From Trypanosoma brucei (taxonomy: Eukaryota), in assembly GCA_000002445.1 (NCBI GenBank), contig AL929603.2, forward strand, positions 224,001 to 288,000: a stretch of 64,000 bases of DNA, read 5' to 3'. This document shows, piece after piece, positions 1 through 46,300 of the stretch; the first letter of the stretch is position 1, and every line of letters starts with the position of its first letter. The position numbers and the translations under genes are program-made. Under the pieces are notes generated by a model. The model did no database searches. It saw only the letters and a program-made list of their open reading frames with translations, and had not been told where the DNA came from.

Positions 1-1475
1 GTGCTCTCCTGGCCATTTTCAGTATTCATTCGTGCCCTTGCTACTTGCAGTGACGACTCTGATACAGTTATGGGTTTACCAGCAGCAGATACAAAAAGCG
101 TTGGAACATCTGTGGAATTTCCTTGTACCGCAGTGCTCTCTTGGCCATTTTCAGTATTCATTCGTGCCCTTGCTACTTGCAGTGACGACTCTGATACAGT
201 TATGGGTTTACCAGCGGCAGATACAAAAAGCGTTGGAACATCTGTGGAATTTCCTTGTACCGCAGTGCTCTCTTGGCCATTTTCAGTATTCATTCGTGCC
301 CTTGCTACTTGCAGTGACGACTCTGATACAGTTATGGGTTTACCAGCGGCAGATACAAAAAGCGTTGGAACATCTGTGGAATTTCCTTGTACCGCAGTGC
401 TCTCTTGGCCATTTTCAGTATTCATTCGTGCCCTTGCTACTTGCAGTGACGACTCTGATACAGTTATGGGTTTACCAGCAGCAGATACAAAAAGCGTTGG
501 AACATCTGTGGAATTTCCTTGTACCGCAGTGCTCTCCTGGCCATTTTCAGTATTCATTCGTGCCCTTGCTACTTGCAGTGACGACTCTGATACAGTTATG
601 GGTTTACCAGCAGCAGATACAAAAAGCGTTGGAACATCTGTGGAATTTCCTTGTACCGCAGTGCTCTCCTGGCCATTTTCAGTATTCATTCGTGCCCTTG
701 CTACTTGCAGTGACGACTCTGATACAGTTATGGGTTTACCAGCGGCAGATACAAAAAGCGTTGGAACATCTGTGGAATTTCCTTGTACCGCAGTGCTCTC
801 TTGGCCATTTTCAGTATTCATTCGTGCCCTTGCTACTTGCAGTGACGACTCTGATACAGTTATGGGTTTACCAGCGGCAGATACAAAAAGCGTTGGAACA
901 TCTGTGGAATTTCCTTGTACCGCAGTGCTCTCTTGGCCATTTTCAGTATTCATTCGTGCCCTTGCTACTTGCAGTGACGACTCTGATACAGTTATGGGCT
1001 TACCAGCAGCAGATACAAAAAGCGTTGGAACATCTGTGGAATTTCCTTGTACCGCAGTGCTCTCTTGGCCATTTTCAGTATTCATTCGTGCCCTTGCTAC
1101 TTGCAGTGACGACTCTGATACAGTTATGGGTTTACCAGCGGCAGATACAAAAAGCGTTGGAACATCTGTGGAATTTCCTTGTACCGCAGTGCTCTCCTGG
1201 CCATTTTCAGTATTCATTCGTGCCCTTGCTACTTGCAGTGACGACTCTGATACAGTTATGGGTTTACCAGCAGCAGATACAAAAAGCGTTGGAACATCTG
1301 TGGAATTTCCTTGTACCGCAGTGCTCTCCTGGCCATTTTCAGTATTCATTCGTGCCCTTGCTACTTGCAGTGACGACTCTGATACAGTTATGGGTTTACC
1401 AGCAGCAGATACAAAAAGCGTTGGAACATCTGTGGAATTTCCTTGTACCGCAGTGCTCTCTTGGCCATTTTCAGT
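1..1475. repeat. 132-bp tandem repeat array, 11 full units plus a 23-bp partial unit, truncated by the window start
   Basis: Units start at 1, 133, 265 and so on to 1453 and are over 97% identical. The few polymorphisms include ccagcagcag versus ccagcggcag and ctctcctgg versus ctctcttgg. The period is a multiple of 3, so frames +1 and +2 stay open across the whole array; the ORF track reports these as 1..1503 and 32..1675. Confidence 0.95.
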
Positions 1476-8503: not shown

Positions 8504-9826
8504 TTAAAGAGAGCTCCACCGGTTAGAAAGAGTTCCAGTACCTGCAGAGGCATACGACACAACCGCCGACTTTTCGTCCAATACTGCAACGCCGGGAAGC
8601 GTTTTGCCCTCGAGGAGTTCCAAAGACGCACCACCACCAGTTGAAACATGAGACATGCGCTTCGCCTCACCGCTCAACTCAGCTGCACTTGCGCTGTCAC
8701 CACCACCGATGATACTCATGAGTCCATGCTCGTGAGTTCCTCGACCCATGGCTTTCGCAATTGCAAATGTACCTTTGGAATAAGGAACCATTTCAAATAC
8801 ACCCATGGGACCGTTCCAAATGGCGCTCTTACACTTCCCAATCGTCTGAACATATTTTTCAATAGTCTTGGGACCAATATCCAGAGCCATATGTCCTTCA
8901 GGGATGTTTTGATCCTCAGTTATCAATGGAGAATCCACAGCTTTGAATTCCGTGTGGCAAACATGATCAATTGGAAGAATAACCTGCACCTTGCGGTCCT
9001 CCGCCTTCTTCAGCAGGGATCGAGCAAATTCAAGTTTACTTTCCTCGCACTTCGATTTTCCAATGCTGTAACCCTGAGCCTTCAGAAATGTGTATGCCAT
9101 TGCACCACCAATTAAGAGATAATCGATGCGCTGCAACATGTTATCCAGAAGTTGGATCTTGTCGCTCACTTTCGCTCCACCAACGATAGCAACCAGCGGA
9201 CGCGGCGGGTTACCAAGTACCTTAGCGAAGTATGAAATCTCCTTCTCCATCAAATAACCGGCAGCACCGTTGCCCAAAATCTTTGGAATTCCGGTCATGG
9301 TAGCACTGTCACGGTGAGCTGTACCAAAAGCATCACTGATGTAAACATCACCATATGACGCAAGGATCTTGGCCATGGCTTCACGTTCTTTTGCCTTCTT
9401 GCTGCCCTCTTCTTTGTAAAAGCGTACATTTTCAAGCAGAACAACATCGCCCGGAGACATCTTAGAGACGACATCTGCAGCATTCAGGCAGTCAGGTGCG
9501 AATGTGACGGGCCTCAATAGCAGTTCGCTGAGGCGCTTGGCTACCGGTTTGAGTGTTGCCTTCTGTTGGAACCCGGGAACACCGCCAGTGCTCCGTATTT
9601 TGTCAGCTTGCGCCATGGGAATACCTTTCGGCCTCCCGAGGTGGCTCATGAGAACACAACTGCCGCCTTCTGTGAGAACCTTCTTGAGCGTTGGCAGAGC
9701 TGATCGGATTCGGTAGTCGTTGGTGATCTTACCGTTTTTCACGGGAACATTAAAGTCAACACGGATAAGAACCTTCTTTCCCTTAAGATCGCATTCATTA
9801 ATGCTCTTCTTCTCGTTAAGGGTCAT
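8504..9826 (-). CDS. PGKC: phosphoglycerate kinase, glycosomal isoform with a ~20-aa C-terminal extension ending -SSL (PTS1-like)
   Basis: The 440-aa ORF has the full PGK fold motifs: VLIRVDFNVP, SHLGRPKG, GGGASLELLEGK. It is about 95% identical in nucleotide sequence to the next copy, but carries a unique 3' extension encoding ...SAVVSYASAGTGTLSNRWSSL. Confidence 0.95.
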   Translation of the reverse strand: MTLNEKKSINECDLKGKKVLIRVDFNVPVKNGKITNDYRIRSALPTLKKVLTEGGSCVLMSHLGRPKGIPMAQADKIRSTGGVPGFQQKATLKPVAKRLSELLLRPVTFAPDCLNAADVVSKMSPGDVVLLENVRFYKEEGSKKAKEREAMAKILASYGDVYISDAFGTAHRDSATMTGIPKILGNGAAGYLMEKEISYFAKVLGNPPRPLVAIVGGAKVSDKIQLLDNMLQRIDYLLIGGAMAYTFLKAQGYSIGKSKCEESKLEFARSLLKKAEDRKVQVILPIDHVCHTEFKAVDSPLITEDQNIPEGHMALDIGPKTIEKYVQTIGKCKSAIWNGPMGVFEMVPYSKGTFAIAKAMGRGTHEHGLMSIIGGGDSASAAELSGEAKRMSHVSTGGGASLELLEGKTLPGVAVLDEKSAVVSYASAGTGTLSNRWSSL

Positions 9827-10175
9827 CTTGTATCACAATTACTTATTAGGTGGAAAAACGTATCTCCGCAGCAATTATGCTTTGATATCACCAAAGAGCT
9901 GAACCTACAGTCCAAACGATTTGAGTGAAAAAGAGTGAAGTAACAAAGATAAACACAAAGTTACACAGTAGAACGATCAAAAAGATAGAAATATCATAGC
10001 GGTTGAAATATTACTGTGCAATCGATACATAGTACCAAAAAATAAAATGAGTAGAAAAAACATAAATGTTATCCTAAAAAAAAAATAATAGTCACGTACG
10101 AACCAATACCTAACCAACAAATAAAAAGGACTAAAAAACACAATTCCATAAAACAGGCCCGTAACAGGATGAATA

Positions 10176-11438
10176 TTACTCCTTTTCGTCCAATACTGTA
10201 ACGCCGGGAAGCGTTTTGCCCTCGAGGAGTTCCAAAGACGCACCACCACCAGTTGAAACATGAGACATGCGCTTCGCCTCACCGCTCAACTCAGCTGCAC
10301 TTGCGCTGTCACCACCACCGATGATACTCATGAGTCCATGCTCGTGAGTTCCTCGACCCATGGCTTTCGCAATTGCAAATGTACCTTTGGAATAAGGAAC
10401 CATTTCAAATACACCCATGGGACCGTTCCAAATGGCGCTCTTACACTTCCCAATCGTCTGAACATATTTTTCAATAGTCTTGGGACCAATATCCAGAGCC
10501 ATATGTCCTTCAGGGATGTTTTGATCCTCAGTTATCAATGGAGAATCCACAGCTTTGAATTCCGTGTGGCAAACATGATCAATTGGAAGAATAACCTGCA
10601 CCTTGCGGTCCTCCGCCTTCTTCAGCAGGGATCGAGCAAATTCAAGTTTACTTTCCTCGCACATGGATATTCCAATGCTGTAACCCTGAGCCTTCAGAAA
10701 TGTGTATGCCATTGCACCACCAATTAAGAGATAATCGATGCGCTGCAACATGTTATCCAGAAGTTGGATCTTGTCGCTCACTTTCGCTCCACCAACGATA
10801 GCAACCAGCGGACGCGGCGGGTTACCAAGTACCTTAGCGAAGTATGAAATCTCCTTCTCCATCAAATAACCGGCAGCACCGTGACCCAAAATCTTTGGAA
10901 TTCCGGTCATGGTAGCACTGTCACGGTGAGCTGTACCAAAAGCATCACTGATGTAAACATCACCATATGACGCAAGGATCTTGGCCATGGCTTCACGTTC
11001 CTCAGTGCTCTTGCTGCCCTCTTCTTTGTAGAAGCGTACATTTTCAAGCAGAACAACATCGCCCGGAGACATCTTAGAGACGACATCTGCAGCATTCAGG
11101 CAGTCAGGTGCGAATGTGACGGGTCTCGATAACAATTCGCTGAGGCGCTTGGCTACCGGTTTGAGTGTTGCCTTCTGCTCGAACCCGGGAATACCGCCAG
11201 TGCTCCGCAGTTCTTTGCCTTCAGCCATAGAAACGCCTTTCGGCCTCCCGAGGTGGCTCATGAGAACACAACTGCCGCCTTCTGTGAGAACTTTTTGGAC
11301 GGCTGGAAGAGCTGATCGGATTCGGTAGTCGTTGGTAATATTACCATCATCCAGAGGAACATTAAAGTCAACACGGATAAGAACCTTCTTTCCCTTAAGA
11401 TCGCATTCATTAATGCTCTTCCTCTCTTTTAGTGACAT
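10176..11438 (-). CDS. PGKB: phosphoglycerate kinase, cytosolic-type isoform (420 aa)
   Basis: Canonical-length PGK. It is the middle copy of the tandem array and has no C-terminal extension. Confidence 0.95.
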   Translation of the reverse strand: MSLKERKSINECDLKGKKVLIRVDFNVPLDDGNITNDYRIRSALPAVQKVLTEGGSCVLMSHLGRPKGVSMAEGKELRSTGGIPGFEQKATLKPVAKRLSELLSRPVTFAPDCLNAADVVSKMSPGDVVLLENVRFYKEEGSKSTEEREAMAKILASYGDVYISDAFGTAHRDSATMTGIPKILGHGAAGYLMEKEISYFAKVLGNPPRPLVAIVGGAKVSDKIQLLDNMLQRIDYLLIGGAMAYTFLKAQGYSIGISMCEESKLEFARSLLKKAEDRKVQVILPIDHVCHTEFKAVDSPLITEDQNIPEGHMALDIGPKTIEKYVQTIGKCKSAIWNGPMGVFEMVPYSKGTFAIAKAMGRGTHEHGLMSIIGGGDSASAAELSGEAKRMSHVSTGGGASLELLEGKTLPGVTVLDEKE

Positions 11439-11769
11439 ATTTGATTTGTGATCAGATAAGTATATATCGATATATATAGTTTTTTCAAAAAAATAAGAAA
11501 CTCCCTTGTTACAATTTTTTAATGTTTTGAAACAAAAAATACAAGTATGTTGGCTAAGTGAGAAAACGTTGAAAAGAAGTGACTGCGAGACTTGGGCAAG
11601 GGGGATTCGGTTTAAATTTTTGAATCAAAAGACTAAAAACTTCATTATGTACTTCTCAAACAACGTTCACAAATAATAAACGATATACTAAAAGTATTCA
11701 AAACTCCCACGACATCAGAAAAACATAGGGCAGGAGAAAAAAAAAAACAAACCCTTCGCCTGATGTACA

Positions 11770-13299
11770 TTACTCCTTATCATCCAATACTGCAACACCG
11801 GGAAGCGTTTTGCCCTCGAGGAGTTCCAAAGACGCACCACCACCAGTTGAAACATGAGAAATACGTGCAGCTTCACCACAGAGTTCAGCCGCACCCGCAC
11901 TCTCACCACCACCGATGATACTCATGAGTCCACGTTTCTGAGTTCCTCGACCCATGGCTTTCGCAATTGCAAATGTACCTTTGGAATAAGGAACCATTTC
12001 AAATACACCCATGGGACCGTTCCAAATGGCGCTCTTACACTTCCCAATCGTCTGAACATATTTTTCAATAGTCTTGGGACCAATATCCAGAGCCATATGT
12101 CCTTCAGGGATGTTTTGATCCTCAGTTATCAATGGAGAATCCACAGCTTTGAATTCCGTGTGGCAAACATGATCAATTGGAAGAATAATCTGCACCTTGC
12201 GGTCCTCCGCCTTCTTCAGCAGGGATCGAGCAAATTCAAGTTTACTTTCCTCGCACTTCGATTTTCCAATGCTGTAACCCTGAGCCTTCAGAAATGTGTA
12301 TGCCATTGCACCACCAATTAAGAGATAATCGATGCGCTGCAACATGTTATCCAGAAGTTGGATCTTTTCGCTCACTTTCGCTCCACCAACGATAGCAACC
12401 AGCGGACGCGGCGGGTTACCAAGTACCTTAGCGAAGTATGAAATCTCCTTCTCCATCAAATAACCGGCAGCACCGTGACCCAAAATCTTTGGAATTCCGG
12501 TCATGGTAGCACTGTCACGGTGAGCTGCACCAAAAGCATCACTGATGTAAACATCACCATATGACGCAAGGATCTTGGCCATGGCTTCACGTTCCTCAGC
12601 ATTTTCACCGTTTTCTTCGCTGTAGAACCGTACATTTTCAAGTAACATAACATTTCCACGCTTTAACCGCGAAACCTCTACTCTGGCATCCAAGCAGTCG
12701 TGAGCAAAATATACATGTTGGCCGAGTAATTCGGCAAGCCTTACAGCAACTGGACGAAGACTGTATTGCTCTTCGTAGCCTGCACTAACACTCATCTGCG
12801 GTAACGCACTGTCTTTGTTTTCGTTTAAGTACTGCATAAGCAAAGATTTCTTCTCGTCCTCAGGAAGGCGCGCAAACAGCATTGTTTTTCCAGATTTCAC
12901 CTCAGGTGATATGTGCGTTGCCTCTTCCCGTGCACTGGATTTCGCTAATATTTTAACTTTCTCCTCTCCCGGTAGAACACTAAAAAACGCTGTTTTACCT
13001 TTGTTGTCGTGAAACTGAGCCTCGTGATATCGCCGTCTTATATCTCGCACACCCGCAACCATTGAAACGCCTCTGGGCCGTCCAAGATGGCTCAGGAGAA
13101 TACAAATACCACCCTGATCAATAACCCGCCGTATCGTTGGAATCGCCGCACGGATTCGATAATCGTTAGTAATATGGCCATTTTGCATAGGAACGTTGAA
13201 ATCGACACGCATAAGCACTCGCTTCGCCGTTAACGGCCAAACATCGCCCACAGACTTCTTCAGGCTTATGTTGTTCTTCGCATTCGGTGCAGTGGACAT
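11770..13299 (-). CDS. PGKA: phosphoglycerate kinase-like protein, 509 aa with a large internal insertion (56-kDa-type PGK)
   Basis: The N-terminal part has PGK motifs (VLMRVDFNVP, SHLGRPRG). An ~80-aa insertion follows (…RRRYHEAQFHDNKGKTAFFSVLPGEEKVKILAKSS…). The C-terminal two-thirds is nearly identical to the B and C copies. Confidence 0.92.
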   Translation of the reverse strand: MSTAPNAKNNISLKKSVGDVWPLTAKRVLMRVDFNVPMQNGHITNDYRIRAAIPTIRRVIDQGGICILLSHLGRPRGVSMVAGVRDIRRRYHEAQFHDNKGKTAFFSVLPGEEKVKILAKSSAREEATHISPEVKSGKTMLFARLPEDEKKSLLMQYLNENKDSALPQMSVSAGYEEQYSLRPVAVRLAELLGQHVYFAHDCLDARVEVSRLKRGNVMLLENVRFYSEENGENAEEREAMAKILASYGDVYISDAFGAAHRDSATMTGIPKILGHGAAGYLMEKEISYFAKVLGNPPRPLVAIVGGAKVSEKIQLLDNMLQRIDYLLIGGAMAYTFLKAQGYSIGKSKCEESKLEFARSLLKKAEDRKVQIILPIDHVCHTEFKAVDSPLITEDQNIPEGHMALDIGPKTIEKYVQTIGKCKSAIWNGPMGVFEMVPYSKGTFAIAKAMGRGTQKRGLMSIIGGGESAGAAELCGEAARISHVSTGGGASLELLEGKTLPGVAVLDDKE

Positions 13300-18277: not shown

Positions 18278-21200
18278 CTACCGTATCATTGGTAAGAAGC
18301 GCTGATCTCGCCGCAGGTCGTGGCAGAGATAACTGTACTTGTATTTGATCTTTTTCTTCGCCACACCTGCAGGTTGTGGGGTTGGAAGGGCAATAGCAAC
18401 GGCACCGTCCGCCTCATCCGTAACGGTATCTGCGGAGGCCTTCTCTGGAACAACCCACGTAAATTCTTTTAAGTCCACAAGTGGAACGGGTGGGAACTCT
18501 AAATTGCGGTTAATGCAAAGCAATTGAACAGCAAACATTGCCCAATATGCAAATGCACTAGCCACATGTGACTCAGGTAAGAGAGTGAGGTGATGGAGTT
18601 CAGGCCGAAGAACGTCCCAACAAAGTTGATATAATAAAGGAAGAGGAATCTGTGCGTCCTCGAAATTTTGCAGCATTGTCTCCATCGTTACGGAGCATCT
18701 CTGTGTGACACGTTCAACAAACCATTGGGACGACAGTCTCTCCGAGCAGTTGGCAAGCAGAGTGCTCACCGTACCTAAAAGGCAACAGTGATTAGGCTTT
18801 CCATGCAATCTATAATGATGAATATAAGCCATCACTTCATCAGGTCGGATACCGTCAAACGCGTGTGCGATCTCCTTACGGCAATGCTGTCGTCGAACAT
18901 CTCGCTCCTCCTTTGCCATCACACGACGACTTTTTAGGCTGCTGATTCCGGAGAGTCGACATGCGACGGCAACCCGGCACACTAAGCTGGGGTTTCCCGC
19001 ATAGACTCGTTGCAACATTTCAACAAAATCCTTCTCATGTACTACTGATGAAAAGGGCTGGTCGCGAAACAACAACCACCTAGCGTCAGATAACCCGGCA
19101 TAGGCGAGTTGCCGTGTGACAACATTGAGGGGAACACCACTTTCTGTCCTCTCTGGATACTCGATAGATCTATAGAGGCGGCGAAAGAATCGCATCAGCA
19201 CCTCAAAGGGTCGATGAGACGACATGAGCTCAGTCACTGCAATGCAGCGATTCAAAAATGATAGCGCAACTTCTTCGCCGCAAATCGACACTGGATCCAA
19301 CACAGCTTTTACCACATTGTCACTTCTCAGAACCTGTGAACCCTCCAAATTCGAAATAACCGCGTCAACATATCGTTTTACATCACCCTCTAACGGGGAC
19401 AAGTCACAGCACCTTGTTAATATTGGTACCACATCCATTTCTGTAAAGTGACCACCAAATACGTGCTCAACTTCAGCAGCAAATGCGGACGCGGCGTCAC
19501 ATAAAGTTCGAACAACGAAAGCTATCAATGATGTACGGCGCCTGTCCAGAATCGCGATACGCACAACACAGCTGTTTTCGGCAACCCTCTTCAGTTCCTT
19601 GTATACATTGTCGGGCGTTAACTCCATGTCATCTAATTCCCCCCTTTCCACAAGGCGAAAACTCAACTCACCCATATCTTTTTCCTTCAACCCACATTCT
19701 TCCGCAAGGGCAGAGCGCATGTCCTCCAATGCACAGCCTGGACGAAGTACCAATGCCCGCATTACCTGTTGTGTCCCCCATGTGAAGAGACATTGCAAGG
19801 GAAGACCACTCGTACAAGGGTGACCCCTTACCGCAGTAACGTTAATACAGCTGCGTTTCTTCCTTATTGCCTCCCCCACCATTGCAGTAACGCCACTGGG
19901 GTTGCATAACGGAACACCATTACTATCATAAATAATTATGTTGTCCATATCAGTTAAATGAAGGGCGTTCAGGCATTCGTTCCGGAATGACTCAAACACC
20001 TTTGGTGACGCTTTCTTCCACGTTAAAAAAAAGCGAACAGGAGCCTTCTTTTCCAATGAACACGCGACCTCAACCACTACCTCGTTAGGAAGCTCCTCCT
20101 CAACATCGGAGCAATTTTTCTTCCCGCTGATACATTCCGTTGCGTTTTTTGAAGTCAATGGTGATTCATCGGCTCCCTTGCCATTTTTTGCCGTCACTGC
20201 ATCCCCATCCCCGCCCTTAAACCCAGTAGGGAGAACTTTCGCATTATTCCACGGACGCGAAGCAGCATTTCCCTCCCCAACCAAAACATCCTTCGTAAAA
20301 AGCGGTTCCAGTAATCTTCCTGATCCTATTTCACTGTCCCGTAAAGCAGGGGATTTCTTCATAGCGAAGGCATTCGGATCCCGGTCTTTTAGAAATACAC
20401 TCACGGCCAATGATAAATTTGGCTTCTCCACAATTTCTGCCTTGGCTGGTTCAGGGACTGCCACTGGTTTCACAGTCTCTGCCTTGGCTGGTTCAGGGAC
20501 TGCCACTGGTTTCACAGTCTCTGCCTTGGCTGGTTCAGGGACTGCCACTGGTTTCACAGTTTCTGCCTTGGCTGGTTCAGGGACTGCCACTGGTTTCACA
20601 GTCTCTGCCTTGGCTGGTTCAGGGACTGCCACTGGTTTCACAGTTTCTGCCTTGGCTGGTTCAGGGACTGCCACTGGTTTCACAGTTTCTGCCTTGGCTG
20701 GTTCAGGGACTGCCACTGGTTTCACAGTTTCTGCCTTGGCTGGTTCAGGGACTGCCACTGGTTTCACAGTTTCTGCCTTGGCTGGTTCAGGGACTGCCAC
20801 TGGTTTCACAGTTTCTGCCTTGGCTGGTTCAGGGACTGCCACTGGTTTCACAGTTTCTGCCTTGGCTGGTTCAGGGACTGCCACTGGTTTCACAGTCTCT
20901 GCCTTGGCTGGTTCAGGGACTGCCACTGGTTTCACAGTTTCTGCCTTGGCTGGTTCAGGGACTGCCACTGGTTTCACAGTCTCTGCCTTGGCTGGTTCAG
21001 GGACTGCCACTGGTTTCACAGTCTCTGCCTTGGCTGGTTCAGGGACTGCCACTGGTTTCACAGTTTCTGCCTTGGCTGGTTCAGGGACTGCCACTGGTTT
21101 CACAGTTTCTGCCTTGGCTGGTTCAGGGACTGCCACTGGTTTCACAGTTTCTGCCTTGGCTGGTTCAGGGGGCAAATTCTGGTCCATATTTTTTGAACGC

Positions 21201-21925
21201 GCGTTAACGACCGCACAAGTGGGAAGTTGATCGTTATCGTTCTTTGTGGATATGGGAACTTTGTTTTTATCTTCCTTCTTGTCAACTTCAGCTAGAGTCG
21301 CTCCTACCACCTTGGCTCCGGTGTCGCCTCTGCCAATATTATATGTAAGATGGCAAACGCTTCGTTGCGCCATACACGATCTTATAAGTAGAGCAGCTGC
21401 CTCCTCGCTGCATATCTCAGTCAACGCCTTACCGTTGCCTTCAGTGGAGAACAAGGTTAGTTGCTGTCCTGGCAACAAAACTTGCTGAATAGCGCCACGG
21501 ACCGCTACCAAGAGAGCCTTCCAGATCTCGCGACGAGGGGGAATAAAACGTTTCGTAGTTGGGACCCCTCCATCCGAGTGTTGAATGGATAACAGTACGA
21601 GCGGGTCATCCACCAGCATTGAGCTTCCCACGCCGCTATCACAATGATCTATAACCGCCGTGAACACAAAACAAGGGCAACTATGCACTGAAAAGAATGC
21701 CACCACATCATCATCGCTGAGCAGCTTGCGGGGCGCTTCATCCTGACCATGAGCAGCGGTAAGCTCGAAGGTACCATGTTGCAGGCGAAGGTCGTAACTT
21801 TTAAGTAAGTTAACCATCTCGAGTATAGTACTTGGAGCTTCCTCTATACTAAATGAGCGGAGGGTACATTCATTAGGCCCCCTGTATACCTCTAACCTAC
21901 ACAAAAAATTGCTGCGCATCGCCAT
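18278..21925 (-). CDS. large repeat-containing protein (1,215 aa) with ~18 tandem copies of a 14-aa unit PEPAKAETVKPVAV
   Basis: Continuous minus-strand ORF. The central block is encoded by a 42-bp DNA repeat at 20425-21168. The N- and C-terminal regions are unique. Confidence 0.8.
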   Translation of the reverse strand: MAMRSNFLCRLEVYRGPNECTLRSFSIEEAPSTILEMVNLLKSYDLRLQHGTFELTAAHGQDEAPRKLLSDDDVVAFFSVHSCPCFVFTAVIDHCDSGVGSSMLVDDPLVLLSIQHSDGGVPTTKRFIPPRREIWKALLVAVRGAIQQVLLPGQQLTLFSTEGNGKALTEICSEEAAALLIRSCMAQRSVCHLTYNIGRGDTGAKVVGATLAEVDKKEDKNKVPISTKNDNDQLPTCAVVNARSKNMDQNLPPEPAKAETVKPVAVPEPAKAETVKPVAVPEPAKAETVKPVAVPEPAKAETVKPVAVPEPAKAETVKPVAVPEPAKAETVKPVAVPEPAKAETVKPVAVPEPAKAETVKPVAVPEPAKAETVKPVAVPEPAKAETVKPVAVPEPAKAETVKPVAVPEPAKAETVKPVAVPEPAKAETVKPVAVPEPAKAETVKPVAVPEPAKAETVKPVAVPEPAKAETVKPVAVPEPAKAETVKPVAVPEPAKAEIVEKPNLSLAVSVFLKDRDPNAFAMKKSPALRDSEIGSGRLLEPLFTKDVLVGEGNAASRPWNNAKVLPTGFKGGDGDAVTAKNGKGADESPLTSKNATECISGKKNCSDVEEELPNEVVVEVACSLEKKAPVRFFLTWKKASPKVFESFRNECLNALHLTDMDNIIIYDSNGVPLCNPSGVTAMVGEAIRKKRSCINVTAVRGHPCTSGLPLQCLFTWGTQQVMRALVLRPGCALEDMRSALAEECGLKEKDMGELSFRLVERGELDDMELTPDNVYKELKRVAENSCVVRIAILDRRRTSLIAFVVRTLCDAASAFAAEVEHVFGGHFTEMDVVPILTRCCDLSPLEGDVKRYVDAVISNLEGSQVLRSDNVVKAVLDPVSICGEEVALSFLNRCIAVTELMSSHRPFEVLMRFFRRLYRSIEYPERTESGVPLNVVTRQLAYAGLSDARWLLFRDQPFSSVVHEKDFVEMLQRVYAGNPSLVCRVAVACRLSGISSLKSRRVMAKEERDVRRQHCRKEIAHAFDGIRPDEVMAYIHHYRLHGKPNHCCLLGTVSTLLANCSERLSSQWFVERVTQRCSVTMETMLQNFEDAQIPLPLLYQLCWDVLRPELHHLTLLPESHVASAFAYWAMFAVQLLCINRNLEFPPVPLVDLKEFTWVVPEKASADTVTDEADGAVAIALPTPQPAGVAKKKIKYKYSYLCHDLRRDQRFLPMIR
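20425..21168. repeat. 42-bp tandem repeat (~17.7 units) inside the 1,215-aa CDS
   Basis: Plus-strand unit: ctctgccttggctggttcagggactgccactggtttcacagt. Unit variants carry a single C/T difference (cagtctctg versus cagtttctg). Confidence 0.95.
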
Positions 21926-38551: not shown

Positions 38552-39604
38552 CTAGTTCCCATCCTCCCTCACACCAACTTTTTCTTTTCCGTCGCTCGAC
38601 CGTAACAGGAGCAGTGGGGATATGATGGTCGCATCACCATGCACACGCACCACATCACAATTTGGTGACAATAAGCCATTGGCGCGATCAGCCATAACAT
38701 TACACGAGCTTTCGCAACCATCTGCATCACTGCCTGTTGTAACATACACAACAGCATCTGCCTGCACATTTCGTAGGAGATGATGCTTCGGCAACCCGGC
38801 CCCAAGCACAATACACGTAATCCGCCCGACATTGGTGCTTTTGCATCCCAATTGCCGTAAACGCCTGACATCAGGCACCGGATCAACAACAAGTCCCTTC
38901 CGCGAATAGTTATAAAAGTAAATCATGTCCCCCATTGATCCGTCTGTAAAGGCAGGAGAAAACACGGGGATATCATTGCGATAACACCAGTAAATTAAAC
39001 TCGAACCGCAGTCGTTAGGCCGTACGCTCTCAAGGGCGGCCCCAATCTCAGCGATGATCTGGGAAGGAGTCGTCTTAGTTGTCCATCGTGAATCACGTTG
39101 CTGTTCATGAAGTCTTCTAAGGAGAGGAACAAAAAAATCCTCGAAATTTCGGTAATTGTCATTGGGCACAAGAAGGTTCCCCACACGGTTCAAACCGTTG
39201 TTTCGCAACGCGTGATCATTCAGAGCAAAGTCCCCAACCAACGTGTCTCCCAAGCACTTGATAACATCCTCCTCAACACCACCAGCTGTAGTAACCACGG
39301 CACCGATACGATTCTCGCGAGCAAGGCAGGCAAAAGTATCCCGAAGGCCACTAGATATGAGATTGGAGGTGTAAGCGAGCATTACTTTGTTGCCGTCCAT
39401 TCCGTTGTCGTTCAAAGCGCGCTGCACTATGCGCCTCGCACGCCCCAAGTTTGTGGCTTCTAACCCGATGTTTGGGTATGCATTTAATACGCACCGAATT
39501 GCTTCTTCCTGCCCAATGTTGAGAAGGTTGCTATAGTCCAAATCCCCAATAACCCGTGAAGGAAAAGGTACACCTGACATGAACCGCACGACAGCAACTG
39601 CCAA
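38552..39604 (-). CDS. deoxyhypusine synthase paralog lacking the catalytic lysine (probably a regulatory or dead subunit), 350 aa
   Basis: The DHS fold is recognisable from …NLISSGLRDT…GAVVTTAGGVEEDVIKCLG… (the NAD/spermidine-site region). The C-terminal region aligns to the human DHS …[25 protein letters not shown]… as …NGLLSPNCDVVRVHGDATIISPLL…, with no Lys at the enzyme-intermediate position. Confidence 0.8.
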   Translation of the reverse strand: MAVAVVRFMSGVPFPSRVIGDLDYSNLLNIGQEEAIRCVLNAYPNIGLEATNLGRARRIVQRALNDNGMDGNKVMLAYTSNLISSGLRDTFACLARENRIGAVVTTAGGVEEDVIKCLGDTLVGDFALNDHALRNNGLNRVGNLLVPNDNYRNFEDFFVPLLRRLHEQQRDSRWTTKTTPSQIIAEIGAALESVRPNDCGSSLIYWCYRNDIPVFSPAFTDGSMGDMIYFYNYSRKGLVVDPVPDVRRLRQLGCKSTNVGRITCIVLGAGLPKHHLLRNVQADAVVYVTTGSDADGCESSCNVMADRANGLLSPNCDVVRVHGDATIISPLLLLRSSDGKEKVGVREDGN

Positions 39605-40383: not shown

Positions 40384-43300
40384 CTAATGCTGCACATTCA
40401 ACAATTCAAACCACTGACGAAGAGCATCTGCAATAGCACTTGGAAGAGTCTCAAGTTCCCTCACGATGAGATAGTGTGGAAATGGAAATTCTTCCATGTA
40501 GGACCGCCGCACGACACTGCCATCCCTGAATTCCACAAGCTGCATGTCGAGCACGGAGTTTGATTTCACGCGCTGCAGCCTCGAGTCACGCTCTGCTTTC
40601 AGTCGACGCATCCTCTGGGCAGGAGTCATCCCCGCGAGTTCTTTGGCTGAAATAGGAGCGAGTGGCGCGGCCCCATTGTTATCGTTTTCACCTCCTGAAG
40701 CCTTGACATCCAGAAGGACAAAGACAACCATCTGGTGATTTTCTTCTGCACGCATGAGCAGCTTTCTCAGTTCCATACGATCTTCCGTGATTTGCCCATC
40801 ACTAATGATGAACATCATCTGCTGAAGGCGCTGAGTGCTGGAGCGAATTTGTCCATTCATACGCCTCCGTGCATCATCAAGGTAGTCCAACGTCGTTTCA
40901 AGGAGCAATTTAAGGTTTGTTGATTTCTGCGCAAAAGTGATTTCGCTAAATGCACGCGGACCGCTCTCGGCTACGAAGGGTTCATGCATCTCGTGTACAA
41001 TGCGCGTCTCTTTTCCGAAACACGCAATCCCCAGTTCACCTACTTCAAGCTGCTGAAGGGCCTCGGCGATAAGAGCAACGGCGCGACAGGACATTATTCC
41101 GGCATTATTGCATTGCATGCTCAACGAGTCATCAAGGGCAACAAGGATTTGGTAACTGCGTTTATTCGGTTTCGTGCGGCGTAGCCATATTCGATCTTTC
41201 TTAAACTGTGAAGCTATATACGGAATGATGCGTTTCATATTGAGCCGCTTACCGGTTTTGTAGTCACCTTGTAACTTGTCAGCGACCGTCGGACTAAGTA
41301 TAAGACGTAACTGCTCACAGAGTTGGTGAGAAAGGGTGTGAACTGCTGCTGTTTGCTCCTGCCAAAGTTCTCTTCCACGGCACAACTTGTCGTACTCCCC
41401 GCCGCCGGTTGAATCTGCCGTCTTGTCGTCGTCGTCGAAACTGTCCTCTTCCTCTTCATTATCATTTCTGATTTTCGACGCAACTTTAACATGTCGCCTC
41501 GCCTTTTTCTTCTCTGCATCCTCCTCGTCACCCTCTTCTTCACTACTTTCCGTGTCTACGCTGACTTCTACTGCATGTTTTCGGTGCCGCGGCGGCGTGT
41601 CCTCATCATTACCTTCGTCAAGTTCTTCAGAGGTACCACTTTCGCTGAAGGGGTCGGCGACTTCCCTCTGTTCCGGAAGGTTGTTAGTAGCCTCCGTAGG
41701 AACAACTGGTTTCTCATCCGTTGCGGCCATGCCCTCCTCCTCTCCCTCTTCATCGAACTCAAATTCGTCGACAACTTCCTTCCGGTTACTCTGTTGTTCG
41801 TTTTGTTGTTGGTTATCAGCTTCCCTATGTTTCTTGACCTCAACACGCTTGTTAAGGTTAAGCTGTTGAACACTTCGCTGGTGGCGCTCGACGGCTTCCT
41901 TTATTGCTCTGTACGGATTACGTGACGTGTTGTGTCGCTCGGCGTTATCACGGTGCTGGGTTCGTTCATCCCGATTTTGCCGCTTCCAGTTTCGGCCGGC
42001 TTCGTCCTGTTGTTCTTCCTCCCCCGGTTGTTGCTCCTCCGTGGTGCCCGCCTCTTGCTGTGCGGCACGAGGACGCTTTTTACTCTCCTTCTCTCGTTCT
42101 TCAGTCGCCTCTTCACCGGCGTGTTCATCCTGCTGACCGCCATTGTAAACATTCTCATCAGCCCAGTCGTCCTCCTTGTCTTCACAAAAATCGCCAGAAT
42201 CACATGTTCCTTCGCCCTCGTTGTCGTCCTTCCCATTGTCTTCGCCCTCTATGTCCCGTGCATTGTCTGATAAAACCGAGGAAGCCTCACCGCTCCCGTT
42301 ATGAGCCTCATCGTCGCTATCTCCAGCGTTGTCGTCGTCATCACCTTCACTTCCCTCACGCTCCCCCTCATCACTGCAGGTATTGCTCTCCCCGTCACCA
42401 TCCCCTCCGTCATGGCTATCATTTTCGCCACCTTCAAGTACATCAGCTGCAAGATCATGGTCCTCACCTTGCTGCTGCTCTTCGGCCTCACGTATTGCCG
42501 CCTCGCGGTTTTCGAAGTTTGCCGTTTCCTGATCACCCTCATTGCCATCTATGCTCTCCTCTTCGTTGGCGAGTTCGTCCTCCGGAACATCATCTGCGTT
42601 ACCTCCATCATCGCTATCCAGATCATTCCCTTCGTTCGTTTCCTTTTTCATACGTTTCCGCTCCTGTACTTCTTCGCCATCGACACTTCCCATTTCTCTC
42701 TCGCTCTCATCACCGTCATCCTCGTCCTCCTCGTCATCATCGTCGCGCCGTTCCTTTGGAGCAGCGAAATCCGTTTCCACATCAGCAGCGTTGTCCTCAC
42801 CATCACTAGACCCGTCGCCCTTATCCTGTTGTTTCTCCTCCTGCTCCTCATCATTCTTGTCCTTTGCACTCATGAGTTGGTCTTCGTTCTCGATCTGGTC
42901 TGTCACATCTTTCTCACCTTGGCCGTCGTCCATACCCGTACCATCAAGTTGATTGCCATCTCCGCTTTCGCCGTCACCGTCCCCATCCTCCTCCTCCTCC
43001 TCTTCCGACTTGCAAAAACCTTTTCGAAAAAGAATACACAGCAGTCGCGAGACTACGAGAGTTAGGTGAGACTGTGCCAATAACGCCCGAGTAGCCCCCT
43101 GAAGAAGGAGACCCACATGCTCCACGCACACGTCAAGTCGCGACAATAGTTGAGTTCGAGCTGCCGAAGATATTTTACGGTCGTGGGTTTCGTCGTGAAG
43201 CAGTGTGTGAAGCGACGAATGTGCAGTCCGAGCTTCTGCAAGCAGCTTGCCAACGGTTTCAGCGTACCTTCTGTAAACCAGGTCTGTCCCCCCACCACCT

Positions 43301-46300
43301 GTGGAGTTTTCCTCCTTCTGTTGGTGCCCTGGAGAAGATGCAAAAAAGTCAGTAAGACCATCATTCTTCGCGAACGCGCTCTCTAAGCTCTCAACCATCA
43401 CTGTGACTTTTCCTTCCCATTGCGCGCCCACCTCCGTACGGTTTCGCTTGGCAGACACTGCCCTGGTCGGCATCGATGCCGTCACAGCACAATTGATGGA
43501 CTCACCTAGTAAGTCCAGTGATTCGCATAACTTGGAGGATGCACTATCCACACAGCCAACACCCGTGCTGCAGAGCCGTGAACACACTAAACGGACACGA
43601 CCGTAGAGAGCACCATATTGCTCCATGATGGCGTCTGCAATGGGTATTTCCGCGCGCCGCTGGCCTTCAGTTGTACAACATAATTTCCACAGCTCCTCCG
43701 TCAAGCAGTACAGCTCGTCTATGGTGGAACGTGAGCCCTCTAAATCAAAGATATGCTCTTGTAACATCCAACGAACATCGTACACGAAACTCTGAAGTTG
43801 TACACACATTTCCATTGAAGCGTGCAGCTGTTCAGCACCTGTTGGCACCGCGCGGTCCTCGCATGTGCTGATAAAATCACGCAGTAGAGCAATCTGCTGG
43901 TGCACTTCGCAAAAATTACCTATCAATTCTGCTTCTTGAACGGCAACGGCGAACAGCGATTCGGCAGTACCCGCTCCGCGTTTCACTTGGGCGTCGCTGA
44001 GATCTTTGTGAGGATGCTTTTCCGCGTCGCGCATGCGCTGGAGCCAGCGTACACCACGGTAATATTCCTGCGCAGCTTCCTCAATCCGCTTGCTAGCGAC
44101 AAGGTGTTTGTGAATATTACGACAAGGAAGGAGAGCACTACTTGTAGCAAACAACTCCTCCCAACCGGAAACCTGCAGAGCGTGCGTATGCGGCACACCC
44201 TTCTCTTCCATGACGGTAAACAGCGTCTTCAAGGCGCGTAACTTTTGGTTTTGTGGAACACTGCGCGCCTGCAGAGCGTTAACACGCTCAATGATTTCGT
44301 TAGCAGCGAATTTAAGGAACTCTACACCCTCCGACATGTAACCAGGAAGTTTTCCTTCGGCAGAGTCAGCATCTTCGCCTCCCGGAGGGGCTTCACACCC
44401 CGAAACCGCAGTTTTCGCCTTGGCATTTATTCTACCCATGCGCGATCTCTTCAGACCTATATCCACAGCGCCTTGGGCACCCTGCTTCTTATTTTTCTTC
44501 CCGTTCTTTTCCTCCAGCTGCAGTGAAGCCAGGGTGAACCCCATGGCCTGGTCATCCTCACATCGTTGCTCCTCCGTCGATATGATCTGCAGCACGGGCA
44601 TCCGCAGCACGTCTTCAAGTGATGCGAGACCGCGACCCATTTTTAGATGAGATTTTTCAGCAGTGGCACGGACCGCATAATAGGTAGAGTCCTCCCAGCG
44701 CATAATGCGAGTAAATTCCTCCATATCCTCCTCGATGGGTGAAAGCGCAATCCGCAGCTTCTGCTCCACTAACTGTGAGTACTGAGTAAAGAAATCCGTC
44801 AGGTGACACGAGGCGTTTGCAAGGGGAAACGATGAGCGCCTCCCCGCAGCGGCAAGATGAAACGCAAAAGCCTTCAGCAACCGCAGGCGGGCATGGAAAT
44901 CACCACAACGGGCGCCCCACATGAAGTCCATGCAGTAGTGAAAGAACTTGGCATAACGGTCCTGTAGCTCTTCCATTGGAATTGGTTGCTGGACGCCGGT
45001 AAGATCACATAGGCTGAACCATACCTTACCAACTTTCAGTTCCCACTCTTCTCGTTTCGCCGCAAACACCTGTCCCCAGCAATGCAATTCGAGCCTCCGC
45101 CAGCGCAACACAAACGTGGACAGATGTGTCATATGATCCATTATGGACGTATCACGGGAGGCATTGCGTTCCCATTCGTAACATTCTCTCAGAAGAATTT
45201 CACACCCCGTCATAACCTTCATCAACGGTGTGGTTAACACCGGTAGTGCTGCCAAGCAAGTGGCAATGCGGGAGCAGCGACGAAGTGAAGGCGTGTCTGG
45301 ATAAGCGGCGCTTAGCTCTGTGATGGCCTGCATGAGGCTTAGTAAGGAAGGATTGAAAGCCCGGAGCTCGGATGGTGCGGGGTCCGTGAAAATATTAAAC
45401 TTGATGGCTTTTGCTTCACTGAGGGGTGTCTCACTGGAAAAGAGACACTTCGACAACAATGTTGCCCGGGCGGCGAATCCGCCGGCCATCATTTGTTCGT
45501 CCTCTGCACGCACAAGCGACCCATCCTCATAAACACCACTGCATCCCCAGCCGCGCAGCTCCTTGGAAACAACGTCAAAAACGCCTTTGAATGCCTCCAA
45601 ATGCCTGTCGCCGCAGAAAGCACCACCGTCGTTAAGCTCAAGCAGACTTTCAAAGAAGTGATAGTGCGTGTCAAGTAGCCGCTGCATGTACTTTGCACCT
45701 TGTGGCCCCGACAACATTAAGCGGGCATGACGGCCCGTCGACAACGCAGACACCTCTGGCTTCGGAGCAGGATTTAAATCAACTTCGTCATTTGTGGCAT
45801 CTTCCATCTTATCGTCCTCGGCGTCGCGGGCACGAATAAACTCCTCTTCGTAACTAGGAAAAAGTTGTTTCAACAAACCCATGTGCGCTTCATCATCGCC
45901 TTCGATAATAACAGCCTTTTCCTTGTAGAGCACTGATAACTCCTGCTCGCTACGTTCTTTGGCCTCAAGTTCCTCAACCGCACGGTACAGCTCGCGGTAT
46001 GAATCGAAAAGCTTTTCAACAAAGTCGCGCTTGATCACTCGGGCTGGAGTGCACTGAACGAGCAGCAGGCAAGAATCAAGATACGCGAGGCGTTGTTGTA
46101 ACGACTGCGACCCGGAAGAAGGCAATACCGGTGAATTAATACTGGTTGATGGAAAATGCATCATCCGCACGGCATCTGGCACGCTAAAAATCATAGACTT
46201 CCGAACTGGCCGAGTTTGCATATAGTAGCCGATGTATGCAGCCAACGTTGCCGAAAGTGCTGGTTCCGAGACGGTGAGAGTCACGTCTTCGTACCCTCCA

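What the first reader, a model, noticed from the sequence alone, without database searches (positions are those of the whole stretch)
20425..21168. 42-bp in-frame tandem repeat encoding ~18 copies of PEPAKAETVKPVAV in a 1,215-aa protein
Perfect or near-perfect 42-bp units with an alternating C/T variant indicate recent expansion. The encoded Pro/Ala/Lys/Glu/Val-rich 14-mer array is the kind of immunodominant repetitive antigen (cytoskeleton-associated) typical of trypanosomatids. Copy number is likely to vary between strains and to collapse in short-read assemblies. The complementary strand artefactually yields two long ORFs, 20178..21230 and 20410..21207.
Basis: seen in the sequence. Interest (0 to 1): 0.5.

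Follow-up and report, generated by a model that had tools for sequence, protein, structure and literature searches.

The report
Variable coding repeat in trypanosome flagellar protein
The 42-base repeat is a real, strain-variable, in-frame array that forms a floppy linker in the middle of an uncharacterised Trypanosoma brucei flagellar protein (Tb927.1.750), an ordinary kind of feature for this parasite with no evidence yet that it is an antigen.

Summary
The array is 17 perfect 42-bp units plus one degenerate terminal unit (20414..21169, minus strand). It lies in frame in a 1,215-aa ORF. The only variation among units is one synonymous GAA/GAG site, and it does not alternate regularly.

The ORF is 100% identical to T. 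brucei brucei TREU927 chromosome 1 protein Q4GZE3, which is Tb927.1.750. A published proteomics table confirms the match. Its coverage figure implies that the repeat peptide itself was detected.

Copy number is 17 in TREU927, 32 in T. b. gambiense DAL972 and 23 in T. b. equiperdum IVM-t1. The flanking coding sequence is 99.2% identical between TREU927 and DAL972. One T. equiperdum contig ends at the array, and one long-read assembly is frameshifted inside it.

The repeat sits in a linker predicted to be disordered (pLDDT about 25). Ubiquitin/PB1-like domains lie on both sides, and a helical C-terminal region follows. The family is found only in kinetoplastids. T. cruzi and T. conorhini carry unrelated repeats in the same linker.

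TrypTag lists Tb927.1.750 among flagellar proteins with stronger distal ("likely axoneme") signal. So "cytoskeleton-associated" and "hypervariable" are supported, and "immunodominant antigen" is untested.

Verdict: an ordinary coding minisatellite that most likely acts as a length-tolerant spacer. Interest is low.

The parts
18278..21925 (-). Coding sequence of Tb927.1.750 (UniProt Q4GZE3, XP_001218778.1). It is 1,215 aa and 132.69 kDa, annotated 'hypothetical protein, conserved' or 'Metal-binding domain-containing protein'.
   Evidence: ORF list. 100% identity and 100% coverage to the TREU927 protein on a 1,064,672-bp contig. Benz & Urbaniak 2019 S3 Table links Tb927.1.750, 132.69 kDa and Q4GZE3. 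The computed mass is 132.689 kDa.
20456..21169 (-). 17 perfect 42-bp units encoding PEPAKAETVKPVAV (aa 253-490). Eleven units carry GAA and six carry GAG at the only variable site.
20414..20455 (-). 18th, degenerate terminal unit, PEPAKAEIVEKPNL. The same unit closes the array in DAL972, in T. b. equiperdum IVM-t1 and at the T. equiperdum OVI contig start.
20096..21328 (-). Whole predicted disordered linker (protein aa about 200-610), which contains the array. It corresponds to the poorly conserved, lineage-variable stretch of the family alignment.
   Evidence: AlphaFold2 model of aa 16-1215: model residues 185-595 have pLDDT 22-30 and no secondary structure. The T. vivax orthologue linker 202-493 has pLDDT about 24. 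Alignment A1.
21329..21925 (-). N-terminal conserved region (aa 1-199), with two alpha/beta domains of ubiquitin/PB1-like (beta-grasp) fold.
18278..20095 (-). C-terminal conserved module (aa about 611-1215 plus the stop codon). It holds two more beta-grasp-like domains, then a helical region and the invariant C-terminal KIKYKYSYLC motif.
   Evidence: Alignment A1 invariant columns. Models. This region carried the homologue search.
20178..21230 (+). Artefactual antisense ORF (350 aa, TTG start) that runs through the array.
   Evidence: The unit has no stop codon in any plus-strand frame. All neighbouring genes are on the minus strand.
20410..21207 (+). Second artefactual antisense ORF (265 aa).

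Best explanation
Shown: the array is a hypervariable, in-frame 42-bp coding minisatellite inside Tb927.1.750 on chromosome 1 of Trypanosoma brucei TREU927. It is translated. Its copy number and internal variant-unit map differ between T. brucei-group genomes (17, 23 and 32 units), while the flanking coding sequence compared between TREU927 and DAL972 has no indels.

Inferred mechanism of change: unequal recombination, gene conversion or replication slippage between near-identical units. This keeps the units homogenised and changes their number.

Inferred function: the encoded block is Pro/Ala/Val/Glu/Lys-rich and has no net charge. It is about 238 aa in this strain. It is an intrinsically disordered spacer or tether within a longer variable linker. 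The linker joins an N-terminal pair of ubiquitin/PB1-like domains to a conserved C-terminal module (two more such domains plus a helical region). The protein is kinetoplastid-specific, and genome-wide tagging placed it in the flagellum with stronger distal (likely axonemal) signal.

The length and sequence of the linker appear to be under little constraint. Other trypanosomes have unrelated repeats or none at the same place. So the repeat most likely contributes reach and flexibility rather than a specific binding site.
For: Identity:
- 100% match to Q4GZE3/XP_001218778.1.
- Tb927.1.750, Q4GZE3 and 132.69 kDa are linked in a published table, and the computed mass is 132.689 kDa.
- Synteny fits: PGKC/B/A and the MORN gene Tb927.1.740 lie beside it.

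Translation:
- The proteomics table gives 4 unique peptides but 22.8% coverage.
- The tryptic peptide AETVKPVAVPEPAK occurs 17 times and makes up 19.6% of the protein. The coverage therefore requires the repeat peptide.
- The protein was also quantified across stumpy-to-procyclic differentiation.

Hypervariability:
- Unit maps give 17+1 units (window), 32+1 (DAL972) and 23+1 (IVM-t1), each with a different order of variants.
- TREU927 and DAL972 flanks differ at 24 of 2,934 nt with no indels.

Disorder: pLDDT is 22-30 with no secondary structure across aa 200-610. The T. vivax linker behaves the same way.

Linker tolerance:
- T. cruzi has a different 14-aa unit starting at aa 246, with 5 or 8 copies; T. 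c. marinkellei has 3.
- T. conorhini has a 13-aa unit, HVDEAKAPSEAAK.
- T. vivax, T. grayi and a T. congolense-like fragment have no perfect repeats.

Localisation: TrypTag Extended Data Fig. 6c source data list Tb927.1.750 as 'Distal Strong'.

Family range: only 30 proteins reach E<=1e-3 among 1.84 billion, and every one with an organism name on record is a kinetoplastid.
Against: - The spacer function is inferred, not tested.
- Both AlphaFold models are poor overall (mean pLDDT 44-49, alignments of 5-6 sequences). Low pLDDT over the array is therefore weak evidence for disorder.
- I read the TrypTag placement from a source-data list, not from images. It comes from tagged procyclic cells.
- Perfect conservation of 17 units could also reflect selection on the peptide rather than recent homogenisation.
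- The T. cruzi unit is acidic and the T. brucei unit is neutral, so no shared physical property beyond hydrophilicity is evident.
- Copy numbers come from three assemblies. One of them has clear sequencing errors inside the array.
Confidence: 0.7

Rival explanations
1. The repeat is an immunodominant B-cell antigen. Its multivalent identical epitopes would drive strong antibody responses in infected hosts, as for other trypanosomatid tandem-repeat proteins. This reading is compatible with the spacer explanation.
For: The TRF score is high (1435) and the units are perfect. The protein is expressed and was quantified in samples that include bloodstream stumpy forms. It is flagellar, like the repetitive flagellar antigen GM6 that is used in serodiagnosis (abstracts of PMC3808341 and PMC4363025 listed). 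That tandem-repeat proteins of trypanosomatids are often antibody targets is established knowledge; I did not test it here.
Against: There is no serological evidence of any kind. No held paper contains the peptide, the accessions or the gene ID in its main text. The protein is intracellular. Abundance is unknown, because MS intensity is inflated by the 17-fold repeated peptide.
Confidence: 0.3
2. The repeat is a sequence-specific binding module, for example a microtubule- or axoneme-lattice-binding repeat like those of MAPs. Copy number would then set binding valency.
For: The localisation is flagellar, likely axonemal. The unit is Pro- and Lys-containing and regularly spaced.
Against: - Each unit has no net charge, with 2 Lys and 2 Glu, whereas basic repeats are typical of microtubule binders (general knowledge).
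- Orthologues have unrelated, even acidic, repeats or none at the same position.
- Copy number ranges from 17 to 32 within one species group.
- The region is predicted to be unstructured.
Confidence: 0.12
3. The array is an assembly artefact or lies in a pseudogene and is not expressed.
For: Repeats of this kind are error-prone in assemblies, as seen in L002 and L003.
Against: The array is intact and in frame in two independent finished genomes, TREU927 and DAL972. Protein-level detection has a coverage that requires the repeat peptide. Conserved domains on both sides stay in the same frame.
Confidence: 0.01
4. One of the plus-strand ORFs (20178..21230 or 20410..21207) is the real gene.
For: They are long open frames.
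Against: They exist only because the 42-bp unit has no stop codon in any plus-strand frame. Nearly all of each lies within the array. Every neighbouring gene from about 4 kb to 55 kb is on the minus strand. The minus-strand ORF has conserved orthologues.
Confidence: 0.01

Closest known systems
T. brucei hypervariable minisatellite genotyping markers MS42, CRAM and 292
   Same: These are single-locus tandem arrays with tens-of-bp units whose allele length differs between T. brucei stocks. They are used to genotype crosses (PMC2481433). From memory, CRAM is likewise an in-frame coding repeat. Also from memory, and unverified, MS42 lies on chromosome I and may be this very locus.
   Different: The held paper gives no position, unit size or primers for MS42. 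The original papers (Barrett 1997; MacLeod 1999, 2000) are not held. Identity with MS42 therefore remains an untested lead.
Trypanosomatid tandem-repeat flagellar or cytoskeletal antigens (e.g. GM6/ClpGM6)
   Same: They are large flagellum-associated proteins with long arrays of near-identical in-frame repeats that disrupt gene models (TrypTag text on ClpGM6). GM6 repeats are serodiagnostic antigens (abstracts).
   Different: No antigenicity data exist for Tb927.1.750. Its unit is 14 aa and has no sequence similarity to those proteins. The repeat makes up only about 20% of the protein and sits between folded domains.
Orthologous linker repeats in T. cruzi (Q4CTI0/XP_805431.1 and strains), T. 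c. marinkellei and T. conorhini
   Same: It is the same protein family, and the insertion point is the same (repeats start at aa 246 in T. cruzi and aa 253 in T. brucei). The T. cruzi unit is also 14 aa. Copy number varies between strains (5, 8 and 3), and gene models are truncated at the repeat.
   Different: The unit sequences are unrelated: (L/P)CE(T/K)PSR(A/V)EDES(N/D)A is acidic, and HVDEAKAPSEAAK differs again. The arrays therefore arose independently.
PEVK region of titin (entropic-spring linker)
   Same: The composition is similar: 71% Pro/Glu/Val/Lys, or 93% if Ala is included. The region is predicted to lack structure and is built of short tandem modules between folded domains. That the titin PEVK region is a spring is established knowledge.
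   Different: There is no homology. Elasticity has not been tested. Orthologues do not keep the composition.
BRC-repeat expansion of T. brucei BRCA2 in the same window (1..1475)
   Same: It is another recently homogenised, in-frame, near-perfect tandem array in a T. brucei chromosome 1 gene: 132-bp units, 99% identical.
   Different: BRC units are folded RAD51-binding motifs with a known function. The 14-aa units here match no known motif.

Membership tests
Coding (in-frame) minisatellite / VNTR | Head-to-tail tandem units of about 10-100 bp, far beyond chance | tested here: met
   Period 42, 17.7 copies, score 1435. There are 17 matches against 0 in shuffles.
Coding (in-frame) minisatellite / VNTR | Unit length is a multiple of 3 and the array lies inside an expressed ORF | tested here: met
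   42 = 14 codons, inside the 1,215-aa ORF. The proteomics coverage requires the repeat peptide.
Coding (in-frame) minisatellite / VNTR | Copy-number polymorphism between isolates with conserved flanks | tested here: met
   17, 23 and 32 full units in TREU927, IVM-t1 and DAL972. TREU927 and DAL972 flanks are 99.2% identical with no indels. Only three assemblies were compared.
Coding (in-frame) minisatellite / VNTR | Interspersed variant units (MVR-type internal structure) | tested here: met
   TREU927 has two unit types in the order AAAGGAGAAAAAAGAGG. DAL972 has variants at four unit positions (G21, G22, T36, T37) in a different order.
Trypanosomatid tandem-repeat B-cell antigens | Recognised by sera of infected hosts | not testable with these tools
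   No serology was found. The peptide, accessions and gene ID are absent from the main text of held papers.
Trypanosomatid tandem-repeat B-cell antigens | Expressed in the mammalian-infective stage | tested here: inconclusive
   The protein was quantified in a stumpy-to-procyclic time course, profile 'not regulated' except at 48 h. I found no long-slender bloodstream data.
Flagellar/cytoskeletal proteins of T. brucei | Localises to a cytoskeletal structure when tagged | tested here: met
   This is literature, not my experiment. TrypTag Extended Data Fig. 6c source data list Tb927.1.750 under 'Distal Strong' proximal/distal flagellum, 'likely axoneme', subdomains.
PEVK-like disordered spring linkers | About 70% or more Pro/Glu/Val/Lys and lack of stable structure | tested here: inconclusive
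   The composition is 71% P/E/V/K. pLDDT is 22-30 with no secondary structure, but the models are shallow and of low confidence.
PEVK-like disordered spring linkers | Measured entropic elasticity | not testable with these tools
   This needs single-molecule force spectroscopy.
MS42 minisatellite locus | Published primers or clone sequence map to these flanks | not testable with these tools
   The only held paper names MS42 without sequence or position. The original papers are not held.
PB1 / ubiquitin-like beta-grasp domains (the flanking folded parts) | Beta-grasp fold similarity to solved PB1 or ubiquitin-like structures | tested here: met

The most novel reading that the evidence does not exclude
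The length of the repeat linker may be functionally tuned. In that reading, the nearly two-fold difference between subspecies sets how far a distal-axoneme protein can reach between its PB1-like ends. Fully extended, the array would span about 90 nm at 17 units and about 170 nm at 32 units. Allele length would then affect flagellar proximal-distal organisation or motility. Alternatively, the subspecies-specific unit variants (Thr to Ala and Ala to Ser in T. b. gambiense) could make it a discriminating serological marker.
Probability: 0.08. Interest if true: 0.5.

Novelty: new member of a known kind. Interest (0 to 1): 0.2.

Why it matters
The practical value is modest.
- The array is a ready-made, highly informative length and variant-repeat marker for typing T. 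brucei isolates.
- It is a known trap for assembly and gene calling. Gene models for this family are truncated or split in T. equiperdum (both assemblies) and T. conorhini, and separate N- and C-terminal fragments in T. congolense and T. rangeli suggest the same problem.
- Its single tryptic peptide occurs 17 times, which inflates MS intensity and coverage for this protein.

Biologically, it marks a length-tolerant linker in an uncharacterised, kinetoplastid-only flagellar protein that has four ubiquitin/PB1-like domains. That protein may itself deserve study.

Nothing here challenges current understanding.

Tried and rejected
- Pfam on the protein and on five orthologues gave no real family. 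A PDB sequence-profile search gave 0 hits. The database name 'Metal-binding domain-containing protein' therefore has no support here.
I used the full alignment A1 instead.
- A second word-indexed homologue search with the 14-sequence alignment A3 returned only the query. The low-complexity linker probably swamped the word index, so the search was wasted.
- Literature searches for the peptide, protein accessions, gene IDs and the T. cruzi orthologue found nothing in main texts.
- Attempts to verify the MS42 lead failed. The original papers are not held, and a bare 'MS42' search was almost all noise, as was the '42 bp' search.
- BLASTP of the repeat against the T. vivax linker and a T. congolense-like linker gave only non-significant similarity, E 0.10 and 0.33. 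An ancestral seed segment is therefore suggestive at best.
- The bacterial promoter/terminator scan was at chance level and is irrelevant for a trypanosome.
- No tRNAs were found in the window.
- I rejected the plus-strand ORFs as genes, an assembly artefact and a pseudogene.
Full report
**1. The observation**

Tandem Repeats Finder reports one array at 20429..21170 with period 42, 17.7 copies, 98% matches and score 1435. The consensus unit, allowing up to 3 mismatches, occurs 17 times in the window and never in 100 dinucleotide-preserving shuffles.

Read on the minus strand, the array lies in frame in the ORF 18278..21925, which is 1,215 aa. It consists of 17 perfect PEPAKAETVKPVAV units (21169..20456, aa 253-490). 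A degenerate 18th unit, PEPAKAEIVEKPNL, follows at 20455..20414.

The only nucleotide variation among the 17 units is a synonymous GAA/GAG Glu codon. There are 11 GAA and 6 GAG units, in the order AAAGGAGAAAAAAGAGG, so the variant does not alternate.

They exist because the 42-bp unit has no stop codon in any of the three plus-strand frames, while only one minus-strand frame is open.

**2. What the gene is**

The unique C-terminal 717 aa find a 1,215-aa protein at 100% identity and 100% coverage. It is from Trypanosoma brucei brucei TREU927, on a 1,064,672-bp contig, with accessions XP_001218778.1, CAJ15986.1 and UniProt Q4GZE3. It is named 'hypothetical protein, conserved' or 'Metal-binding domain-containing protein'.

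The surroundings fit chromosome 1:
- Three tandem phosphoglycerate kinase genes lie at 8504-13299.
- A MORN-repeat ORF lies at 16378-17727. It matches Tb927.1.740, 'PIP5K related' (PMC7595295).
- Deoxyhypusine synthase and a 4,600-aa midasin lie further along.
- All of these are on the minus strand.

The gene ID is verified directly. [quoted passage not shown] The mass computed from the window ORF is 132.689 kDa.

**3. Expression**

The only tryptic product of the array, AETVKPVAVPEPAK, occurs 17 times and makes up 19.6% of the protein. Four peptides cannot cover 22.8% of 1,215 aa (277 aa) unless the repeat peptide is one of them. The array is therefore translated. This is an inference from published numbers, not from spectra.

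Tb927.1.750 was also quantified through stumpy-to-procyclic differentiation, where it was significantly up only at 48 h (Dejung 2016, PMC4765897).

**4. Variability and behaviour in assemblies**

I recovered the locus from three other T. brucei-group assemblies and mapped the units.

| Assembly | Units | Notes |
|---|---|---|
| T. b. brucei TREU927 (window) | 17 + 1 | two unit types, GAA and GAG |
| T. b. gambiense DAL972 | 32 + 1 | four variant positions, including Thr to Ala and Ala to Ser, in a different order |
| T. b. equiperdum IVM-t1 | 23 + 1 | six 1-nt deletions, mostly in homopolymer runs; these frameshift the gene and explain the 694-aa model that starts just after the array |
| T. 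equiperdum OVI | not known | contig starts 10 nt before the terminal degenerate unit, so the assembly broke at the array |

The flanking coding sequence of TREU927 and DAL972 differs at only 24 of 2,934 nt, with no indels. This is the signature of a hypervariable minisatellite with interspersed variant units.

**5. Protein architecture and where the repeat sits**

Orthologues exist in T. congolense, T. vivax, T. cruzi, T. c. marinkellei, T. grayi, T. melophagium, T. rangeli, T. conorhini, Leishmania martiniquensis, Leptomonas seymouri and Phytomonas. A profile search of 1.84 billion representative proteins finds only 30 hits at E<=1e-3. Every hit with an organism name on record is a kinetoplastid; the rest are unnamed metagenome or sequencing-run assemblies.

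The alignment shows a conserved N-terminal region of about 200 aa, a non-conserved linker, and a strongly conserved C-terminal region of about 600 aa.

AlphaFold2 models of the T. vivax orthologue and of T. brucei aa 16-1215 are poor overall (mean pLDDT 49 and 44, with 5-6 sequences in the alignments). They agree on these points:
- There are two alpha/beta domains before the linker.
- There are two more after it, followed by a helical region.
- pLDDT is 60-85 in these folded parts.
- Across aa 200-610, which includes the whole array, pLDDT is 22-30 and there is no secondary structure.

Pfam and a PDB sequence search find nothing. The 'metal-binding' name is therefore unexplained.

**6. The linker is a repeat hotspot with no sequence constraint**

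- T. cruzi strains carry 5 or 8 copies of an unrelated, acidic 14-aa unit, (L/P)CE(T/K)PSR(A/V)EDES(N/D)A. It starts at aa 246, almost the same point as aa 253 in T. brucei.
- T. c. marinkellei has 3 copies.
- The T. conorhini gene model ends inside a 13-aa repeat, HVDEAKAPSEAAK.
- T. vivax, T. grayi and a T. congolense-like fragment have Pro/Lys/Glu-rich linkers without perfect repeats.
- Similarity of the T. brucei unit to the T. vivax and T. congolense-like linkers is not significant, E 0.10 and 0.33.

The arrays thus arose independently in a region that tolerates large changes in length and sequence.

**7. Localisation**

In the TrypTag genome-wide tagging resource (Billington 2023, PMC9981465), the source data for Extended Data Fig. 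6c list Tb927.1.750 among nine 'Distal Strong' proteins. I saw the list, not the images.

**8. Most likely mechanism**

Shown: this is an expressed, hypervariable, in-frame minisatellite.

Inferred: unequal recombination, gene conversion or slippage between near-identical units homogenises the array and changes its length.

Also inferred: the product is a disordered spacer or tether between PB1-like modules of a flagellar protein.
- It has no net charge, with 2 Lys and 2 Glu per unit.
- It is 71% Pro/Glu/Val/Lys.
- It is about 238 aa long, which is roughly 90 nm if fully extended, against about 170 nm for 32 units.

The composition recalls the titin PEVK spring, but that is a resemblance only. 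The rival 'specific binding repeat' is disfavoured by the neutral charge, the unrelated orthologous repeats and the two-fold length variation.

The 'immunodominant antigen' idea is compatible with the spacer reading but untested. No held paper mentions the peptide, the accessions or the gene in its main text.

**9. Comparison with what is known, and novelty**

In-frame minisatellites in trypanosomatid flagellar and cytoskeletal proteins are a well-known kind of feature. So is their use as genotyping markers, for example MS42, CRAM and 292 (PMC2481433).

From memory, MS42 lies on chromosome I and might be this locus. I could not test that, because the original papers are not held.

The gene is in the reference annotation, in proteomes and in TrypTag. 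I found no description of this particular repeat. I therefore file it as a new member of a known kind, of low interest.

**10. Also seen in the window**

The window begins inside another near-perfect in-frame array, with 132-bp units, 11.2 copies and 99% identity. It encodes BRC repeats: Pfam BRCA2 repeat, 11 stretches, E 8e-75. It is evidently the expanded BRC array of T. brucei BRCA2.

Noticed in passing
window 1..1475 (ORF start at 1673, minus strand; runs off the window start): A second near-perfect in-frame tandem array: 132-bp units, 11.2 copies, 99% identical. It encodes 44-aa BRC repeats (Pfam BRCA2 repeat, 11 stretches, E 8e-75). From memory this is T. brucei BRCA2 (Tb927.1.640) with its known recent BRC expansion.
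   Followed up: partly
window 8504..13299 (-): Three tandem phosphoglycerate kinase genes of 440, 420 and 509 aa. They are the PGKC/PGKB/PGKA cluster that anchors the window on T. brucei chromosome 1.
   Followed up: partly
window 18278..21925 (-) and orthologues P0003, P0006, P0015, P0018: The database name 'Metal-binding domain-containing protein' has no support in Pfam or PDB sequence searches. The only candidate ligand residues I saw are in two invariant motifs, GHPCTSGLPLQC and the C-terminal KIKYKYSYLC. The origin of the name is unknown.
   Followed up: partly
L003 3073..3740 (T. b. equiperdum IVM-t1, CM010672.1): Six 1-nt deletions inside the array, mostly in short homopolymer runs. They look like long-read sequencing errors, and they frameshift the gene so that only a 694-aa C-terminal model was called.
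   Followed up: yes
P0019 (T. conorhini), P0018 (T. rangeli), P0002 and P0020 (T. congolense and T. congolense-like): Only partial models of this family are on record for these species. The T. conorhini model is an N-terminal fragment that ends inside a linker repeat. T. rangeli and T. congolense IL3000 are represented by C-terminal fragments, and P0020 is a T. congolense-like N-terminal fragment. This suggests gene models are commonly split in or near the linker.
   Followed up: partly
window 40384..54186 (-) and 38552..39604 (-): A 4,600-aa midasin-like AAA ATPase, with seven AAA_5 stretches and midasin lid domains. Next to it is a deoxyhypusine synthase gene.
   Followed up: no
window about 60000..64000: GC skew changes sign from negative to positive and AT skew turns strongly negative. 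Long minus-strand ORFs stop after about 55 kb. This may be a strand-switch region between polycistronic units.
   Followed up: no
P0026 (1,433 aa, unnamed sequencing-run assembly): A distant relative that carries about ten tandem copies of an approximately 75-aa domain resembling the beta-grasp/PB1-like domains of this family. The family may have expanded these domains in other kinetoplastid-like organisms.
   Followed up: no
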